From: Harriotta raleighana
Taxonomy: Eukaryota
DNA length: 64,000 nt
Direction: 5' to 3'
Assembly: GCA_050575255.1 (NCBI GenBank)
Contig: JBNZDD010013707.1
Span: forward strand, 3,854,596 to 3,918,595
Part shown: one piece after another, positions 6,215-62,390 of the stretch
Layout: every line of letters starts with the position of its first letter
Position numbering within the stretch: position 1 is the first letter of the stretch
Notes under the pieces: model-generated
What the model was told of the DNA's origin: nothing
Databases searched by the model: none
The model's input: only the letters and a program-made list of their open reading frames with translations
Translations under genes and position numbers: made by a program

Positions 6215-7066
6215 ACTGTGCCTGTTTTAAATTGAGTCCTGGACGATGGACAACTTTCTTCAACTGAACGTCAGCAAGACGGCTTGATTGGCTTGCCTCA
6301 GCGCGTCCGCACCTCAGGCACTAGCAGCATCAGCATCCAAGTCTGCATACTCCATCTCATGAAGCAAGTCAGGAACCTGGGTACTTGTTTGACCCTGCAC
6401 TGCTTTCTACCATGTCTGTAACATTGCCAGACTCACCCCTCAGGCTGCTGAAACCCTCAGCCTTACATTCAACCAATCAAGGCTTGACTATGGAAACACC
6501 CTCCTCGTCGGCCTTCCTGGCACTTCCCTTCCCAAGCTGTAGATCATCCAGAGCTCTGCAGCTCGTGTGCTCTCCCACACTAGGCTCCACTACCCCTTCA
6601 CCCCTACCTTCACCCGACTCTATTGGCTCCACATCCCCCAGAGGATCGAATTCAAGATGCTTGTCCTGACTTTCAAGGCCATTCACGGCCTTGCCCCTTG
6701 CTATCTCTCCAACATTCTGAATTCCTACCAACCTGCCCTCCGCCTCCGTTCAGTGGGGTCCGGACTGCTTCATGTCTCCCACATGACCCATCCTACCATT
6801 GGTGGCTGCACTTTCAGCCTCTCTGCCCCCACACTCTGGAACTCCATCCTCCAGTCCCTTCACCTCACTTCCTCCCTTGCCTTCTTTAACGCCGGTCTCA
6901 AGATCCTCCTTTTTGATCGTACCTTCTTCCGCCCTCCCACCTCTATCCCTCCCCTCCTCCCTATCCTGCCCCTCCCCCAAGCTCAGGTAACGACTTCTGA
7001 CAGTTCAGTGCCTTGGGATGTCCTCCTGACATGAAAGGCGCTCTATAAATATAATTTTGTATTGTA
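6215..7066 (+). mobile_element. L2 LINE 3' portion (tail type A)
   Basis: NFLQLNVSKT; ORF 6567-7034 LYWLHIPQRIEFKMLVLTFKAIHGLAPCYLS...APTLWNS is the L2 ORF2 C-terminus; tail TGCCTTGGGATGTCCTCCTGACATGAAAGGCGC. Confidence 0.93.
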
Positions 7067-8091: not shown

Positions 8092-8816
8092 GATAACAAT
8101 AACAAAATTACACTAGTATAGGGCCTATCATGTAAGGAGGATGTCTCAAGGCCCTGGGTAGTCAATTTTTCAGACCTGAGCTGGGGTCGGCAATAGGGAG
8201 GGTGGAGGGAAAGGAGGGGATTTTGGGTGACCAATGGGACCGTCGAAAGAGGAGGGTTTAGAGGAGGAACTTGAACTGAGCTAGGGAGGGGGCAAAGAGG
8301 AGGGGTCTGTCGGATGGAATTCCATAGGTTAGTGGCAGAGTGGCTGAAGGCTTGCTAGCCGGGTGGGACGGGGGACAGGCTGGAGCCTGCAGAGTGGAGG
8401 GGGCAGGCAGGTTGGTAGGGGGGGTAGAAGGTCGCATGGTAGGGTAGGACGAGGCCATTGAGGGCTTTGAGAGAGAACCAGGATTTTGAACTGAATCCTC
8501 TGGATGGTGGATAACCAATGGTGGTTGAGAGAGAATGGGGGAGATGGAGTCACGGAGCTTGGAGTGGTAGAGGACAAGGATCGCAGAGTTCTGGATGATC
8601 TGCAGCCTATGGAGGGAGGAGTTGGGAAAGCCTACAAGCAGGGTGTAGGCGTAGTCGAGCCTGGATGTGATGAAGGCATGACTGAGGGTTTCAGTGGTTT
8701 GAGGGATGAGGTAGTGGCAAAGTCTGGCAATATTACGAGGTGAAGGAAGATAGTGTGGGTCATGGCTTGGATGTGGGGGAAGAAAGACAGTTGAGGATCG
8801 AACAAGACATCTAAGT
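8092..8816 (-). mobile_element. L2 LINE 3' portion (tail type A)
   Basis: reverse frames HWLSTIQRIQFKILVL and SRLDYAYTLLVG; AACAAAATTACAC tail; truncates the CR1 fragment. Confidence 0.92.
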
Positions 8817-8880
8817 GAAGCCTAGCGATTATAAGAAACTTTTATAATTTTTATAAATTTAATAATAATATATAAAATAT

Positions 8881-19181: not shown

Positions 19182-19460
19182 AGAGTTCTGTAGTTCAGTG
19201 GTTAGAGCACTTGCCTCTCAAGCTAGAGGCTTGGGCTTGATTCCCGGTAGGTTTCCTTAGCCACACTCCTAATAATAATCCCTCAAGAAAAAACTTAAAT
19301 CCACAACTGTTTTGTGGGACACTGCTGTGTGCAATTGGCTGCCATGTTTGCCCACAAATATACAGTCAATTCACTTTACAGTATATTCTGTGAAGCGCTT
19401 TGAGAGGTTCAGAAGACATGAAAAGCTCTATATCAAATGCAAGGATTATTATTATTTATT
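19182..19460 (+). mobile_element. near full-length SINE (short form)
   Basis: tRNA-like head, internal deletion, type-B tail. Confidence 0.92.
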
Positions 19461-27169: not shown

Positions 27170-27333
27170 TACAACAACAACAAAATTATATTTGTAAAGC
27201 ATCTTTCACATCGAGGAAATCCTAAGGCGCTGAACTGTCCGAATTAGGGGACGTGGGCAAGGCTCAGGTGAGGGAGGGCGGCAAGGTAGGAGGGTGGCTG
27301 AAGGCACATTCGAAAAGGAGGGTCTTGAGACAT
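27170..27333 (-). mobile_element. L2 3' end (type A)
   Basis: (AAC)n AAAATTATATTTG...CCTAAGGCGCTGAAC...TCGAAAAGGAGGGTCTTGAG. Confidence 0.85.
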
Positions 27334-28000
27334 ACAACAACAACAAGAACAACAGCAACTTGGATTTACATAGCGTCCTCCTCGCCGGATGAGAACGCTC
27401 AGAACTCTTCCCAATAACAGATCCCGGGGCCGAGCCAGGGTGAGGGGGAAAAAGGTGACTGAAAGCACGGTCGAAAAGAAACGTCATTAGCAGAGACCTG
27501 ATAATAAGGTGGGGTGGGGGGCGAAGGGAATGAGGAATGGTTCCAGAGCCTCGGGGTGTAGTGGCTGAAGGCACATCTGCTGATGGTGGAGCGGAGGATT
27601 TAGGGGACAAGGAGGAGGCCAGACCTGGTAGAGGCCAGACCCGGTCGGACCTTGAGGGAGGCAAGGGAGGTATTGTGGGATGGAGTTCCAGAGTATGAGG
27701 GCAGAGAGGCTGAGGATTTTGAATTATATCCCCTGAGGAACCAGAGTGGGGGTGATGAGCTCACAAAACTTGGTGTGGGAGAGGATACAAATTGCAGAGT
27801 TCTGCCTGAGCTGCAGCTTGTGAAACAAAGAGTTGGGGAGGCTGACAAGGACGGACTTCCCATAGTCTAGTCTTGAAATTACATTTGCATGTTTGAGTGT
27901 TTTGGTGGCCTGAGGGGTGAGGCAATGTTTTGATCTCACAATCCATGATGACAAAGCAATGTTTGGGGAGTGTTGCATTGTCAAAGGTAGAGTAGTTCAG
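27334..28000 (-). mobile_element. L2 3' portion (type C tail)
   Basis: VISRLDYGKSVLVSLPNSLFHKLQLRQNSAICIL; MTFLFDRAF. Confidence 0.9.
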
Positions 28001-32141: not shown

Positions 32142-32206
32142 ATAAAAAGAAAAACTGTGACTGCTCGAAATCTCAAATAGAAACAGAAAATTGTAGCAAT
32201 GCACCA
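32142..32206 (-). mobile_element. degenerate Penelope-type end fragment
   Basis: AAAACTGTGACTGCTCGAAATCTCAAATAGAAACAGAAAATTG resembles 62075-62125 and the reverse of 55510-55560. Confidence 0.5.
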
Positions 32207-33305: not shown

Positions 33306-33990
33306 ACAACAACAACTTGCATTTGTACAGCACCATTCACAATGGGTGACATCCTGGAGCATTTAACAATGACTGAGTCTGACCCCAGGACAGAGGATGA
33401 GGGAGTGGGGGAAGTGTCCGTAAGCATGATCAAAAAGGAAGGTCGTTAAGTGGGATTTGAAAGTGGGGAGGGATGAAGCAAGGCGGAGGGATTGAGGGAG
33501 GAAGGTTCGGGACATAGTGGCTGAAAGCATAACTGCCGATGGTGGAGCAGAGGGGGCAGTGGACAGAACAGAGGTTGGAGGCTGCCGAGCAGAGGCAGTG
33601 GATGGTGAAGTGAGCATGTTGGAAAGGTAGGGAGATATGAGGGCCTGAAGGTACTTGAAAACAAGGGAGAGGATCTTGAAGTTGATCTATTTGGAAATTG
33701 GAAGCGAATGCAGCTTGGCAAGGACTGGTGTGATGGGGGGGGTCTAAAGTTTTGTGTTGGTTTGTACTGTATCTGGGTGGAGGAGTTTTGAACTAATTGT
33801 ATTTTACGTACGTGGAACTGGGAGGTCAGTGAGGAGGGCCTTTGAAATGTCCAGCTGGAAAGTGACAAAGGTGTGGACAAGGGTTTTGGTTGTTGTGGAT
33901 ATGAGGTACGGATAGAGGTGGGCAATGTGGAGGTAGAAAAAGAAGAAAAATTGGGCACAGGTTGGCAAGAGCCAAGAGTTGGGTTTGTGC
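33306..33990 (-). mobile_element. L2 3' portion
   Basis: KTLVHTFVTFQLDISKALL; KIQLVQNS; LPQSLRLASSLPTFKSHLTTFLFDHAY. Confidence 0.9.
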
Positions 33991-34024
33991 ATAAGATAAA
34001 TATCCAGACAATTAAAATCTCCAT

Positions 34025-34203
34025 TCAAAAAAATCCTTCAAGAAAAAAACAATAATAAAATTGGTCTTCAATCCACTGTTTGCAGGACACTGCTGCGCAA
34101 TTGGTTGCTGTGTTTCGCTCACAAATATAGTCAGTTCACTTTATAGTATGTTCTGTGAAGCGCTTTGAGATGTTTAGAAGCAGTGAAAAGTGCTATATCA
34201 AAT
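34025..34203 (+). mobile_element. SINE 3' half whose tail resumes at 34500-34528
   Basis: ends ...GTGCTATATCAAAT; AAATGCAAAGATTATT continues after the antisense copy. Confidence 0.9.
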
Positions 34204-34499
34204 AATAATAATCCTTGCATTTTGATGTAGCACTTTTCGCGTCTTCTAGACATCTCAAAGCGCTTCACGGACTACACTGTAAAGCGAATTGACTGTATAT
34301 TTGTGGGCTAAACGCAGCAGCCAATTGCACAGAAGTGTCTCACAAACAGTCATCAATTGAAATGACCAATTTATTTTTGAGGGACTATTATTAGGCACGT
34401 GGAGTAAAGAAATTTGCCCAAGGTTTCGCCCTGCCTGGAATTGAACCAGGATCTCTCACTTGTAAGGCGAGTACTCTAACCATTGAGCTCCAGGACTTC
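34201..34499 (-). mobile_element. full-length SINE inserted antisense into the previous copy
   Basis: reverse: GAAGTCCTGGAGCTCAATGGTTAGAG...GGTTCAATTCCAGGCAGGGCGAAACCTTGGGCA...(ATT)n. Confidence 0.95.
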
Positions 34500-39213: not shown

Positions 39214-39411
39214 GGGAAGGGGAGGGGTTTACGTCTACAGTTCAGTCACTGTCTTTAGTTATCGAAAAGGTAGAATTTTCAACGAAGTGTTAATTAACAG
39301 AACAAAAGGNGGGAAGGGGAGGGGTTTACGTCTACAGTTCAGTCACTGTCTTTAGTTATCTGTCTTTAGTTATAGAATTTTCAACGAAGTGTTAATTAAC
39401 AGAACAAAAGG
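39214..39411. other. duplicated sequence around a single N (assembly join)
   Basis: 39214-39263 = 39311-39360 and 39271-39309 = 39373-39411; N at 39310. Confidence 0.85.
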
Positions 39412-49224: not shown

Positions 49225-49765
49225 GACACTGCAATGTAGTGCTGGGAGTGTGCTGCAGTGCTGGAGATAGCGACCTTCACATGAAACTGAGGTTCCATCC
49301 ACCTGTTCAGGAGTCCTGTAGCTCAGTGGTTATAGCATTCGCCTTGCAAGGAGAGACCTGGGTTCAATTCCAGGCAGGGAGAAAACTTGGGCAAGTTTTC
49401 TTACTCCACATGCCTGATAATAATTCCTAAAAAAAACTTCAATCCACAACTGTTTGTGGGACGCGGTTTGCGCAATTGGCTCCCACGTTTCGCCCACAAA
49501 TCAATCAAAAAATCAATCCAAATTTTATTTATNTGTTTGTGGGACGCGGTTTGCGCAATTGGCTCCCACGTTTCGCCCACAAATACACAGTCACTTCATT
49601 TTACAGTATATTCTGCAAAGCGCTTTGAGATGTCTGGAAGACGTGAAAAGCAGTATATCAAATGCAAGGATGATTATTTTTATTATGTTAGAGACCTCGT
49701 GGAGCTTCTTGAAAACAGAAATTTCTCCTGGGGTGTCCTAGCCACCAATCCTACAGATAAGTGGG
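49225..49765 (+). mobile_element. DeuSINE remnant interrupted by a young SINE
   Basis: Deu domain at 49225-49309 resumes at 49687-49765 (GGGTGTCCTAGCCACCAATCC). Confidence 0.7.
49310..49686 (+). mobile_element. young full-length SINE spanning an N join
   Basis: GGAGTCCTGTAGCTCAGTGG (box A)...GGTTCAATTCC (box B); 51 bp duplicated around N49533. Confidence 0.93.
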
Positions 49766-53809: not shown

Positions 53810-54156
53810 GGAGTCCTGTGGAGTAGTTGCTACCACTCACCTCGCAAGCGACAAGACCCGGATTGGATTCTTGGCAGGCAAAACTTTAGGCAAGTTTCCT
53901 TACTCCACGCTCCTTCGTTTAATTAGCAGCAAGCAGGAACTGGTTGTCAGTCAATTGGCAGATAGCTTTCCAGGGTTAATAATCCCTTCAAAAAATAAAT
54001 AAATTGGTCATTCAATCCATGACTGTTTGTGGCACATGACTGTGCACAATTGGCTGTAGTAGTTCACTCACAAAATACACTTTTAATTCACTTTACAGTA
54101 TATTCTGTGAAGCACTTTGAGATGTCTTGAAGATGTGATAAGGTGCTTTATCAAAT
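53810..54156 (+). mobile_element. long-form SINE (extended CORE)
   Basis: head plus ~65 extra bp (CCTTCGTTTAATTAGCAGC...CAGGGT) between the CORE-like segment and TAATAATCCC. Confidence 0.88.
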
Positions 54157-54389: not shown

Positions 54390-54606
54390 ATTTACCGTAT
54401 ATTTGTGGGCAAAACACAGCAGCCAATTGCCCACAGCAGTGACCCACAAACAATTGTGGATTGAAATGACCAATTTATTTTTGAGGGATTATTATTAGGT
54501 GACTGGAGTAAGGAAACTTGCCCAAGATTTCGCCCTGATCTGACTGGATTCGAAACACAGGTCTCATGTTTATAAGGCAAGTGCTCTAACCACTGAGCTA
54601 CAGGGC
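54390..54606 (-). mobile_element. SINE (short form) lacking the 3' tail
   Basis: reverse: CCTGTAGCTCAGTGGTTAGAGCACTTGCC...GGGCGAAATCTTGGGCAAGT. Confidence 0.9.
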
Positions 54607-54974: not shown

Positions 54975-55091
54975 GTTATAAGACTGCTGAACCTTGACTC
55001 CTAACTTTTCTCCGCTGTTGTCCTATGTTCGGGCNGTTATAAGACTGCTGAACCTTGACTCCTAACTTTTCTCCGCTGTTGTCCTATGTTC
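54975..55091. other. 56-bp exact duplication around a single N (assembly join)
   Basis: 54975-55030 = 55036-55091; N at 55035. Confidence 0.9.
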
Positions 55092-55310
55092 ACTGTAATA
55101 GACACTTTGTTGATCATGTGAAGTGCTTCAATCCCAAGGACCGATTGTAGCAAAGGCAGAATGTGCCTCCTGTCAGGTTACATCTGTTTGTTTCATCCAA
55201 CTTGCTTTTACTTTTTAATAAATGTGTAATATTTTTCATTCACTGTTTATAAGCTCACTAGAAAGATCAAAATCTGATGGACAAGTTGAACTTGATACAG
55301 TAGTAAGTTA

Positions 55311-55563
55311 AAAACAGAAATTGCTGGAACACTTAGCAGGTCAGGCAGCATCTATGGAGAAAGGAAAGTGAGTCAATGTTTCTGGTCCATGACCCTTCGT
55401 CAGAACTGTGGCATATTGGGTGGGAAGAGTTCTGATGAAGGGTTGTGGACCCGAAACGTTGACTCACTTTCCTTTCTCCTTAGATGCTGTCTGACCTGTT
55501 GAGTGTTCCAGCGATTTCTGTTTCTGTTTCAGATTTCCAGCATCCAGTAGTTTGCGTTTTTGA
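55311..55563. mobile_element. palindromic Penelope-derived element with target-site duplication
   Basis: ~97-bp inverted arms (55311-55407 / 55428-55523), 20-nt spacer; flanks TAGTAAGTTA (55301-55310) / TAGTAAATTA (55564-55573). Confidence 0.85.
55427..55465 (+). ncRNA. minimal type-I hammerhead ribozyme motif
   Basis: GAGTT-CTGATGA-A-GGGTT gtg GACCC-GAAA-CG-T-T-GACTC: helix I, core, helix II, palindromic ACGT helix III, GUU cleavage triplet. Confidence 0.7.
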
Positions 55564-55654
55564 TAGTAAATTATGTCCTTTTGCCTTTTGCATTGGTTCC
55601 ATACCTTTTTCTTTGCACAATTTTACGATTCAAAAATAGCTGTTCTGAATTAAA

Positions 55655-55959: not shown

Positions 55960-56380
55960 AGATACTAGAAATGTGCTTTATGAAATGTGCATGTGCACTG
56001 TGGAGTTTGTACCTGGAAAATACACACAGTGAGTGCAATGGACTGTATTATGAATGGTTGTTTACTCAGGGAGGCTGGCAGTGTTATTGCTTGTCCTTCT
56101 GGGACAGCTGCTCCGTGGAGAACTGAGGTTCTCTGCCTTACTAATTTCTCCAGCCTCAGTGAAAGGATGACAAGGTGTGCAAACATCTCCATAGTGAACA
56201 AGGGCCGAGTAATTAATTTGCTGAGGATCCTGGACCTGAGGTGGCCTAATGCCTTGTAATCGTTTATCACAGATTGATGCAGATGTTTGCGTTCAGTTGG
56301 TGAATGGTTTCTGTAAAGTTAATAGAGCACATTCGTTTCATAGGAACATTGCACAATAAAATCACGATCATTCATTTTTT
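55960..56380. promoter_or_regulatory. candidate conserved non-coding element
   Basis: GTAATTAATTTG, AGATTGAT, CTAATTTC, ACATTGCACAAT motifs; TE-free. Confidence 0.4.
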
Positions 56381-58159
56381 TCTTCACCAAATATTTTAAA
56401 ATAAATAAAATTACTTATGTCCTTCCTCTCCTGAAGGTGTTGATTTCTACAGTTGTTGTTGGTAATATGTTTGATCAGTATTATTAGTAATGTGCCCAAC
56501 GAGTGTTGTTAGTAACCTGTCTGGTGAATGTCATCAGTAACTTATCTGCTAGGCGTCTTCTGTACCAAGGGGCCCATTGTTTTTGCTTCTCCTTCTGGGA
56601 AGCTGCTGCATGGAGTCATTGAGGTGCTCTGACTTATTGATTTCTCTTCTAATTCCTCCAACAAAATTCTGTTCCATTCCCTCTGCTCTTCCAACTCTGA
56701 TTCATTGCTTGTTCCACAATCTCTCCATCTCACTGTTGTTGGCTGAGCCTTCAATCATTTTGTCCTTGCTCTCCAGAACTCTTTAAAAATCCTTTGCCAG
56801 CTCCTTCTCTTGTAAAGCCTCCTATAAACTTTTTAAAAACATACTGAATAGGTTTGCAGCTTTGAGGTGAACCAAAATTTGTAGATCCAAGCAGATGAAA
56901 AACTGCACCTTCCACAAAATTGCATCAAGTTATATCAACTTGGTCTTTTGAGTAATAGTTATAATAATCCTTGCTTTTGGTATAGGGTCTTTCATATCAG
57001 GAGGATGTCCCAAAGTGCTTCACAGGAATTTCAGTGAAGTAGAGTGATTGTATTTATGGGTGAAGTAATTATTTTTCATTGATTTGGTATTAATCTAAAA
57101 AAAAGTTGCTGTACTCCACAGTAAACTCTGAAACTCTTTGAGAAATTTGATGACATGACAAGGTACCTCTGTACTGTACTATCAAATTCAAAAAATATTA
57201 TTTACTGTTATCTGCATGTTTTCATTCATAGGGAGTTGGAAGAGGGCTGGTGGTAAGCAACAATTGTTGTTAACCAATCCAACAATTTGTAACAACAATT
57301 TTCACGTATCAAAACACTTTTCTTGTAGGAGAATATTTCAAAGTGCTTTTCAGAAAGGGAGTATGAGCCTAGGATGGGTGGAGATTAGGGTGGTAAATGG
57401 GAAGTGGAACCAAGGTGCAAACATAGAGATATGTTTGATGGGTTTTTGGAAGAGAGAGCTCCAGAAGAGTGAGAATGAAAGACATGTAGCACACCCCCAA
57501 CACTACAACGGAGTGGCTGTATGATTATCGAAGGATGACAAGGAATTTGAACCCCCAAACGTCTGATATACTTACACAGAGGCAAATGAGCCAGACTTGA
57601 CACTTAGGGATAGCTTTAGACAGTTGTGCGGAGCAATATTATATACCATTTATGCTTAATAAACTAAAAAGTGAATATTTCTCTAAAATGAATAAGTAAA
57701 TGAGATTCAGCACCAGTCTGCTAAGGTAATAATGGAGGCCAAAAAATGTACAAATTGTTCATTAGAGCTCAAAATTCAAACAAGACTGCAAAATGAGAGC
57801 AATGTCACGGGTTCTACAATCCACTGTATCCATACTGATTAATATAATCATTACAACTTCCTTTCCAATTAAACATGAATAGTTATGATCTCAGCATATT
57901 AAATCCATTATATTGAATCTAATTATTAGTATTTTCCAGATACACTCCCCATATATTGAAATTTTAATTAGTACCAATCCAGTCTTCTTAATAAAGGCTA
58001 ATCTGTAACAAAAGAAAATCCCAATTTCTCTCCATTTGCTTGTGGATGTATTAATAGCAAAGGTCGACTAAAATGTCTATTTGCCAGGCTTCTTTAGCTC
58101 CCTGATACAGAACAAGATCTTCACTCTCACTTCACTATCTGAATCCTTCACTCAGCTGA

Positions 58160-61804: not shown

Positions 61805-62390
61805 TAGTCAGCTTCGCTCAGTTGATAGCACTTCTCACCTACACCAGAAAGATTTAAGTTCAAACTTCACATCAGGACAAAGCTTTTAGTCTAGGCTGAC
61901 TCTCCATTGCAGGACTAGGGAGAGTGTTGTGTTGGCAGCATTCTTTTGGATGAGCCATTAAAAACTAAGATCCTTTCTGCCTGTTTACTGCTACATTAAC
62001 AATAAACAACTTTATTCAAAAAGAGGAGAGATTTGTCTTGTGTTCTGACCAACAGTCCCCCAACTAAACAAAACACAAAATACTACAGATGCTGGGAATC
62101 TGAAACAAAAATAGAAGTTGCTGGGGAAACTCAGCAGGTCAGGCAGCATCCATGGAGAAAGGAAAGTGAGTCAACGTTTTGGGTCCACGACACTTTGTCA
62201 GTTATTATTAATAACTATTATAATAAAATATATAATAATAAAATAATGCTGCCTGACCTGCTGAGTTGCCCCAGCAACTTCTGTTTTTGTTTCAGCTCCC
62301 CAACTAAACTAATCATTCACTTCATAGTTGCTTAGGAGACTTGCAAAACATAGTTACTTGAAAGGATCTATGAAATGTGATTAAAACTTT
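61805..62390 (+). mobile_element. DeuSINE interrupted by a Penelope-derived element
   Basis: head GTCAGCTTCGCTCAGTTGATAGCAC; Deu domain TTTGGATGAGCCATTAAAAACTAAG; resumes at TCATTCACTTCATAG after 62310. Confidence 0.8.
62070..62297. mobile_element. second palindromic Penelope-derived element with 12-bp TSD
   Basis: long arm 62070-62202, AT-rich spacer, short inverted arm 62246-62295; CCCCAACTAAAC at 62058-62069 and 62298-62309. Confidence 0.85.

What the first reader, a model, noticed from the sequence alone, without database searches (positions are those of the whole stretch)
55301..55573. Short palindromic Penelope-derived retroelement carrying an intact minimal hammerhead ribozyme core
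Seen: a 253-bp element of two inverted ~97-bp arms between 10-bp direct repeats (TAGTAA[G/A]TTA). The + strand at 55427-55465 reads GAGUU (helix I) CUGAUGA, an extra A, GGGUU-GUG-GACCC (helix II), GAAA, CG, U-U, GACUC (helix I'), predicting cleavage after 55460 (GUU). Helix III is only the palindrome ACGU. The opposite arm carries the same motif on the - strand with two substitutions (GACC-A-GAAACATT). Known: Penelope-like elements carry minimal type-I hammerheads with a palindromic helix III proposed to cleave as dimers, and they often leave inverted partial pseudo-LTRs. Inference: this is a non-coding, ribozyme-bearing unit mobilised in trans, retrozyme-like. A read-through transcript would fold into a long hairpin that sequesters the ribozyme, giving a built-in on/off switch.
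Basis: partly seen in the sequence, partly recalled or inferred. Interest (0 to 1): 0.8.

Follow-up and report, generated by a model that had tools for sequence, protein, structure and literature searches.

The report
Truncated Penelope retrotransposon remnant with hammerhead
A short back-to-back remnant of a Penelope-type jumping gene that still carries that family's usual mini-ribozyme sequence; it is real but ordinary, and probably inactive where it sits.

Summary
In detail: 96-bp inverted arms, a 10-bp flanking duplication (7 of 2000 by chance) and a complete minimal type-I hammerhead at 55427-55465. Head-to-head arms, a one-sided 30-40-bp tail and a minimal hammerhead are the published signature of Penelope-like elements (PLEs). 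No RT/GIY-YIG partner was found, so membership rests on architecture.

The retrozyme and switch ideas are not supported. No tandem copy exists. None of 4 arms starts at the cleavage site, so the template was uncleaved. The motif is decaying at CpGs and is broken in 2 of 3 arms, with no compensatory changes. In read-through RNA the antisense arm is made first and disfavours the hammerhead fold by about 50 kcal/mol, which means always off, not switchable.

Best reading: a 5'-truncated, inverted PLE insertion with a passenger ribozyme. Two leads remain: 3 of 4 arms end at the hammerhead's 5' edge, and C>T changes are one-stranded (10:0).

The parts
55301..55310 (.). Left target-site duplication (10 bp, 1 mismatch to the right copy)
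55311..55407 (-). Inverted, tail-less pLTR arm (3' end points outward, to the left)
55370..55408 (-). Degenerate minimal hammerhead of the left arm (C11.1 and G16.2 changed)
55408..55427 (.). 20-nt spacer at the head-to-head junction; not found elsewhere in the window with up to 4 mismatches; its apparent extension of helix I is not significant (278 of 2995 random 20-mers do as well)
55428..55523 (+). Direct pLTR arm, the part mirrored by the left arm
55427..55465 (+). Consensus-complete minimal type-I hammerhead; predicted cleavage after 55460; helix III only as an intermolecular ACGU palindrome
55524..55563 (+). 40-nt 3' tail present on one arm only (PLE signature)
   Evidence: literature
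55517..55532 (+). Splice-acceptor-like pyrimidine tract plus CAG inside the pLTR (rank 7 of 4220 plus-strand AG sites under a crude score); function untested
55564..55573 (.). Right target-site duplication
62058..62069 (.). Second copy: left TSD (12 bp, perfect match to 62298-62309)
62070..62201 (-). Second copy: main arm with 30-nt tail (62070-62099) and a broken hammerhead (62168-62201; G8 and G12 changed)
62202..62245 (.). Second copy: 44-nt, 98% A+T filler at the junction
62246..62297 (+). Second copy: short tail-less inverted arm (about 50 nt, no hammerhead)
62298..62309 (.). Second copy: right TSD

Best explanation
An old, heavily 5'-truncated insertion of an endonuclease-bearing Penelope-like retrotransposon, reduced to two head-to-head copies of the pLTR 3' end. 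SHOWN in the sequence: arms, one-sided tail, TSDs, hammerhead motif, second copy, decay pattern. KNOWN from papers: PLE pLTRs carry such hammerheads; purified PLE protein nicks both strands, starts reverse transcription at two sites a tail-length apart, and inserts uncleaved RNA. INFERRED: a PLE RT/GIY-YIG protein made a staggered cut (10-12 bp); one end was extended from the tail-end site and the other from the internal site 30-40 nt upstream; both copies ran through the uncleaved hammerhead, stopped near its 5' edge and were joined with a short spacer or filler. The palindrome would thus be a by-product made at insertion. The hammerhead is a passenger from the parent pLTR. In place it is sequestered in any read-through RNA and has no same-strand partner nearby to dimerise with. 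It decays neutrally and happens to be consensus-complete in one arm.
For: Architecture matches PLE descriptions in both copies: tails of 40 and 30 nt against the published 30-40 bp and 31 bp; TSDs of 10 and 12 bp against 8-10 bp; head-to-head is the commonest PLE arrangement. Pairs of minimal hammerheads on opposite strands 100-700 bp apart, attributed to truncated PLEs, are already reported. Arms group by locus at 4 sites and by arm type at 0, over the 42 columns shared by all four arms. 0 of 4 arms start at the cleavage site; 3 of 4 run through it, in line with unprocessed RNA being the inserted substrate in vitro. Decay: 7 changes in 24 CpG positions against 6 in 192 others (Fisher p 1e-4); the hammerhead region has 8 changes in 87 positions against 5 in 129 downstream; 0 of 9 pairs have a compensatory change. 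Sequestration costs about 50 kcal/mol.
Against: No autonomous partner was linked. Pfam found no RT or GIY-YIG domain in the 150 longest of 173 open frames or in 150 of 160 exon candidates, and a six-frame motif scan found no credible hit. Three protein searches with pLTR translations were empty. Only two copies (four arms) were available, so the decay and covariation counts are weak. Arm grouping by locus could also come from gene conversion between arms or from several palindromic masters. 3 of 4 arms ending within 0-4 nt of the core's 5' edge is not what random truncation predicts and may point to a short dedicated template RNA. The 10:0 strand bias of C>T changes is not explained by plain neutral decay. 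PMC3846280 proposes self-priming on an antisense template, not dual priming, for inverted junctions.
Confidence: 0.7

Rival explanations
1. A dedicated non-autonomous PLE derivative (SINE-like). A short RNA that begins just upstream of the hammerhead and ends at the tail, or a palindromic master, is transcribed on its own and mobilised in trans by PLE protein.
For: Two copies in 64 kb, both under 260 bp and with no coding remnant. 3 of 4 arms stop within 0-4 nt of the core's 5' edge. pLTR sequences suffice for mobilisation in trans. [quoted passage not shown]
Against: The two copies share neither spacer, arm length nor tail length, and arms group by locus. Strong 5' truncation is normal for autonomous PLEs. 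No promoter or transcript evidence.
Confidence: 0.3
2. One reading: a retrozyme-like unit whose hairpin acts as an on/off switch for an active ribozyme.
For: The + arm motif is consensus-complete. With a 5' end at or after about 55400 the hammerhead fold is within 2-3 kcal/mol of the ensemble. Animal retrozymes are related to PLE pLTRs.
Against: No tandem arrangement. No arm starts at the cleavage site. The motif is broken in 2 of 3 arms. The read-through fold is always off. A single minimal hammerhead showed no cleavage and dimers only low cleavage in vitro, and the anole PLE ribozyme needed its protein. 8 of 9 predicted Xenopus retrozyme dimers did not cleave.
Confidence: 0.05
3. A DNA-transposon MITE (Mutator/foldback-like: long inverted arms, 9-11-bp TSD; family traits recalled) with a chance hammerhead-like string.
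For: Long inverted arms and a 10-bp TSD. The ends of copy 1 match at 14 of 20 bases if the right end is moved 3 nt inward.
Against: The inverted repeat is not terminal: 40- and 30-nt tails sit outside it on one side. Copy 2 ends match at most 11 of 20 in the same test. TSD length differs between copies (10 and 12). A motif this strict arises in 1 of 300 window shuffles.
Confidence: 0.03
4. The insertion arose as in the best explanation, but the + strand RNA hairpin has since been kept by selection (for example as a small-RNA or editing substrate).
For: All 8 transitions between the arms of copy 1 give G-U pairs on the + strand: 94 of 96 pairs kept on +, 86 of 96 on -. Polarised C>T versus G>A on + is 10:0 in the arms, against 90:75, 66:51 and 27:21 in local SINE and LINE controls (the first two sets overlap).
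Against: The pattern was noticed after the fact and the numbers are small. Two of the ten changes lie outside any paired region of copy 2. No host gene or transcript was identified. The Rfam microRNA hits are far below gathering score.
Confidence: 0.07

Closest known systems
Endonuclease-bearing Penelope-like elements (Penelope/Poseidon, Neptune) and their inverted-pLTR insertions (PMC3846280, PMC8557442, PMC11167929)
   Same: Head-to-head inverted arms, 30-40-bp tail on one arm, short TSD, hammerhead within about 105 nt of the 3' end, uncleaved template.
   Different: No ORF or direct pLTR remains; the whole insertion is 253 bp. The clade could not be assigned without an RT.
Minimal PLE hammerheads, min-HHR (PMC4209133; dimer cleavage in Lunse et al., seen only as cited in PMC6765202)
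   Same: Complete core, extra base between 9 and 10.1, G10.1-C11.1, 4-5-bp helix I, palindromic 15.2-16.2 with no loop; opposite-strand pairs already reported.
   Different: Helix II is 5 bp (7-8 bp in the Schistosoma families). Activity is untested here.
Animal non-LTR retrozymes (PMC7229834; bioRxiv 10.64898/2026.07.22.740005)
   Same: Non-coding, 200-300 bp, type-I hammerhead, related to PLE pLTRs.
   Different: Retrozymes are head-to-tail tandem repeats cut into monomers and circles. This element is head-to-head, flanked by TSDs, and spans the cleavage site uncut.
L1 twin-priming 5' inversions (recalled)
   Same: An inverted segment made at insertion, between TSDs.
   Different: L1 inversions flip non-overlapping parts of one RNA; here the same 50-96 nt are duplicated, which needs two templates, tandem pLTRs or fold-back.

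Membership tests
EN+ Penelope-like element | Telomerase-like RT plus GIY-YIG ORF in the element or its parent | tested here: inconclusive
   None in the element or window; protein searches with pLTR frames were empty; the host genome was not available.
EN+ Penelope-like element | Inverted (head-to-head) pLTR arrangement | tested here: met
   Both copies.
EN+ Penelope-like element | 30-40-bp tail on one end only | tested here: met
   40 nt and 30 nt.
EN+ Penelope-like element | Short TSD of variable length | tested here: met
   10 bp (9 of 10) and 12 bp (12 of 12); chance 7 of 2000 and 0 of 2000.
EN+ Penelope-like element | Sequence identity to a curated PLE pLTR (Repbase/Dfam) | not testable with these tools
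Minimal type-I hammerhead (min-HHR) | Conserved core C3-A9, G12-A14, A15.1/U16.1, H17 | tested here: met
   + arm of copy 1; broken in the other two arms that cover the motif.
Minimal type-I hammerhead (min-HHR) | Extra base at 9/10.1, G10.1-C11.1, palindromic 15.2-16.2 | tested here: met
   55439; 55440/55452; 55456-55459; traits.
Minimal type-I hammerhead (min-HHR) | Covariation in helices I and II across copies | tested here: inconclusive
   0 of 9 pairs with a two-sided change in 3 arms; 85% of 27 cells paired; too few sequences.
Minimal type-I hammerhead (min-HHR) | Self-cleavage as a dimer | not testable with these tools
   Needs a bench assay; unconstrained cofolding of two copies did not give the dimeric hammerhead as the lowest-energy fold.
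Rfam hammerhead families | Score at or near gathering threshold | tested here: not met
   No hammerhead model listed.
Animal non-LTR retrozyme | Head-to-tail tandem units, each with a hammerhead | tested here: not met
Animal non-LTR retrozyme | Unit ends set by self-cleavage | tested here: not met
   0 of 4 arms begin at the cleavage site.
Animal non-LTR retrozyme | Linear and circular monomer RNA expressed | not testable with these tools
   No RNA data.
MITE / TIR DNA transposon | Inverted repeats at both termini and a fixed TSD length | tested here: not met
   One-sided tails; at most 11 of 20 terminal match in copy 2; TSD 10 versus 12.

The most novel reading that the evidence does not exclude
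These short palindromes are frozen footprints of the unsolved PLE integration step. A dimeric RT/endonuclease holds two uncleaved RNAs, paired through the hammerhead's palindromic ACGU helix III. It primes one from each staggered nick (tail site and internal site), and both cDNAs stall just past the hammerhead. The minimal hammerhead would then serve mainly as an RNA dimerisation and stop signal rather than as a cleavage device. If such copies are abundant in this genome, their junctions would give a genome-scale readout of the mechanism. The one-stranded C>T bias might record a single-stranded hairpin intermediate.
Probability: 0.12. Interest if true: 0.65.

Novelty: new member of a known kind. 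Interest (0 to 1): 0.27.

Why it matters
As it stands it matters little. It is one more example of a described association (minimal hammerhead in a PLE pLTR) in a described architecture (inverted pLTR with tail), useful for repeat annotation and as a warning that such hairpins mimic microRNA precursors and MITEs. How PLEs generate inverted pLTRs and what their weak hammerheads do are both stated as open in the papers read. If arm ends pile up at the hammerhead's 5' edge across many copies, this family would make both questions directly testable.

Tried and rejected
Rfam searches gave no hammerhead match; the microRNA hits (29.9 and 26 bits against gathering 70 and 100) only reflect the hairpin.

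Searches for outside copies: the GTDB scan gave 12 matches, none extending beyond 27 nt, treated as chance. Phage and plasmid BLAST gave no match.

Protein searches for a PLE ORF beginning in the pLTR were empty, which is weak evidence given the short queries. A search with a LINE-like fragment, meant to identify the host, returned 2 hits with no informative name. The host-gene search found nothing, so transcription through the element is unknown.

The idea that the spacer natively extends helix I was rejected as not significant (278 of 2995). The sigma-70 promoter and terminator scan is irrelevant to a eukaryote. A possible third fragment at 32158-32189 (E 0.11) was left out of all counts.

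Ten literature searches found no description of this particular short palindromic family. Repbase and Dfam could not be searched, so that is no evidence that it is uncatalogued. The Lunse et al. paper is not held. One of three supplement files of PMC4209133 could not be searched and figures are not held, so a cartilaginous-fish example there cannot be excluded.

Full report
Observation. The sequence at 55301-55573 is as described. Inverted arms of 96 nt, 90% complementary, lie at 55312-55407 and 55428-55523 around a 20-nt spacer. The element folds at -178.7 kcal/mol against -71 for shuffles. The 10-bp flanking repeats match at 9 of 10 bases; an equal match within 5 nt of both ends occurred in 7 of 2000 random position pairs. 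The + strand carries a consensus-complete minimal type-I hammerhead. Its core pattern is unique in the window and absent from 100 shuffles. A relaxed descriptor finds only this site, with 16 of 300 shuffles giving any hit and 1 of 300 a hit as strict. Rfam's hammerhead models do not match it, as expected by inference for a motif without helix III.

The right arm continues 40 nt beyond the mirrored part (55524-55563). A second copy lies on the other strand at 62058-62309. It has a perfect 12-bp TSD (0 of 2000 by chance), a main arm of 132 nt with a 30-nt tail, a 44-nt A+T filler and a tail-less arm of about 50 nt. An nhmmer profile of the four arms finds no other copy above E 0.1 in the window. 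The window is repeat-rich eukaryotic DNA with about 23-25 copies of a tRNA-headed SINE. By recall of the repeat types it looks like a cartilaginous fish; no call shows this.

Identity. PMC4209133 (parts 1-2 of 4 read) defines PLE minimal hammerheads by an extra base between 9 and 10.1, a G10.1-C11.1 pair and palindromic 15.2-16.2, all present here. It also reports pairs on opposite strands 100-700 bp apart, attributed to truncated PLEs. PMC3846280 (passages) describes inverted pLTRs, most often head-to-head, a 31-bp tail on one of them and TSDs of 8-10 bp. PMC8557442 (passages) gives the tail as 30-40 bp, often at one end only. Both copies fit all of these. The missing piece is a coding partner. 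Pfam found none in the 150 longest of 173 open frames or in 150 of 160 exon candidates, a motif scan was empty, and three protein searches with pLTR translations returned nothing. The assignment therefore rests on architecture plus motif.

How it arose. Over the 42 columns shared by all four arms, the two arms of a locus share a variant against the other locus at 4 sites, and no site groups the arms by type. The copies also differ in arm, spacer and tail length. This fits palindromes made anew at each insertion from one source pLTR; gene conversion between arms or several masters are not excluded. None of the 4 arms begins at the predicted cleavage site: 3 run through the whole core and stop 0-4 nt upstream of it (spacer not counted), and 1 begins 23 nt downstream. 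The template was therefore uncleaved. PMC11167929 (parts 1-2 of 4 read) shows the same in vitro for the anole PLE. Its protein nicks and extends both strands, starts at two sites that delimit the tail, and inserts unprocessed RNA whether or not the ribozyme is active; that ribozyme cleaved only with the protein present. From this I infer priming at both staggered nicks, one with and one without the tail, followed by early termination and joining. The published alternative is self-priming on an antisense template. I cannot separate the two.

State of the ribozyme. Against the majority of the three long arms, 7 of 24 CpG positions have changed against 6 of 192 others (p 1e-4). The hammerhead region is no better kept than the sequence downstream (8 of 87 against 5 of 129). 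The left arm has lost C11.1 and the helix III palindrome, and copy 2 has lost G8 and G12. The two changes in the + arm's motif fall at the free position 7 and at a helix II pair that became U-G. No pair shows a compensatory change (0 of 9), though three sequences give little power. The motif is best read as intact by luck.

The switch. In a head-to-head layout the antisense arm is transcribed first whichever strand is read. With the hammerhead helices enforced, the ensemble is about 50 kcal/mol worse in the full transcript (P about 2e-36) and about 38 kcal/mol worse when the polymerase has just passed 55465. Only 5' ends at about 55400 or later bring it within 3 kcal/mol. Even the isolated motif takes the hammerhead fold at about 10%. 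No same-strand partner for dimer formation exists in the window. This is constitutive silencing, with no evidence for an on state.

Retrozymes. PMC7229834 (passages) and bioRxiv 10.64898/2026.07.22.740005 (parts 1-3 of 5) define animal retrozymes as tandem repeats with a hammerhead in each unit. The preprint derives them from PLE pLTRs and finds them in the one chondrichthyan it sampled. This element fails the tandem and cleavage-defined-end tests. It is a sibling product of the same pLTR kind, not a retrozyme.

Loose ends, against a purely neutral reading. First, the clustering of arm ends at the hammerhead's 5' edge (3 of 4). Second, all 10 polarised C/G transitions are C>T on the window's + strand (binomial p 0.0008, noticed after the fact), whereas local SINE and LINE fragments give 90:75, 66:51 and 27:21. 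As a result the + strand hairpin of copy 1 keeps 94 of 96 pairs and the - strand 86. Two of the ten lie outside paired regions, so hairpin selection alone does not explain the bias. Both points need genome-wide copies.

Literature coverage. Ten searches found no paper on this specific short family. Repeat databases were not searchable. From recall, short Penelope-derived palindromes are common in shark genomes and are probably catalogued. Other papers were seen only as passages: PMC6155905, PMC6765202, PMC2377424, PMC8969392 and 10.1101/596502. Lunse et al. was seen only as cited in PMC6765202. Supplements: 2 of 3 files of PMC4209133 and 3 files of PMC11167929 were searched without hits; bioRxiv supplements are closed.

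Verdict. The feature is real and was well spotted, but it is a new member of a known kind. Interest 0.27.

Noticed in passing
window 62058-62309: Second copy of the same family on the - strand, with a perfect 12-bp TSD, 30-nt tail, A+T filler and a broken hammerhead.
   Followed up: yes
window 55312-55523 and 62070-62297: Strand-biased decay: C>T on the + strand 10 times, G>A 0 times; local repeat controls are near even.
   Followed up: partly
window 55517-55532: Strong splice-acceptor-like site inside the pLTR (rank 7 of 4220 under a crude score); the short arm of copy 2 ends 2 nt past the equivalent CAG. PLE pLTRs can hold introns.
   Followed up: partly
window 55311-55330 and 55541-55560: The tail-less end and the tailed end of copy 1 resemble each other (14 of 20), as two priming sites with a shared motif might.
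   Followed up: partly
window 39310, 49533, 55035: Three single N positions; those at 49533 and 55035 lie next to exact duplications (49451-49501 = 49534-49584; 54975-55030 = 55036-55091) and that at 39310 between 89% identical copies. These look like contig-join artefacts of a draft assembly, not biology.
   Followed up: partly
window 34200-34497 (-) and about 22 more copies: tRNA-headed SINE family (Rfam tRNA hits at 19184, 34426, 54535, 58997); DeuSINE-like by recall. The ARAGORN tRNA-Val call at 34426-34497 is the SINE head.
   Followed up: partly
window 6543-7031 (+), 8261-8821 (-), 27209-27760 (-), 33449-34024 (-): Decayed LINE fragments, L2-like ORF2 C-terminus by recall; no Pfam hit.
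   Followed up: no
window 32158-32189 (-): Possible very decayed 3'-end fragment of the same pLTR (nhmmer E 0.11).
   Followed up: partly
window 56079-56150 and 56575-56646; 56454-56540: An 82% identical 72-bp direct repeat 496 bp apart, enclosing three loose 25-bp-spaced repeats; unidentified.
   Followed up: no
window 54011-54074 and 54402-54465: 64-nt, 73% inverted repeat that overlaps two oppositely oriented SINE copies.
   Followed up: no
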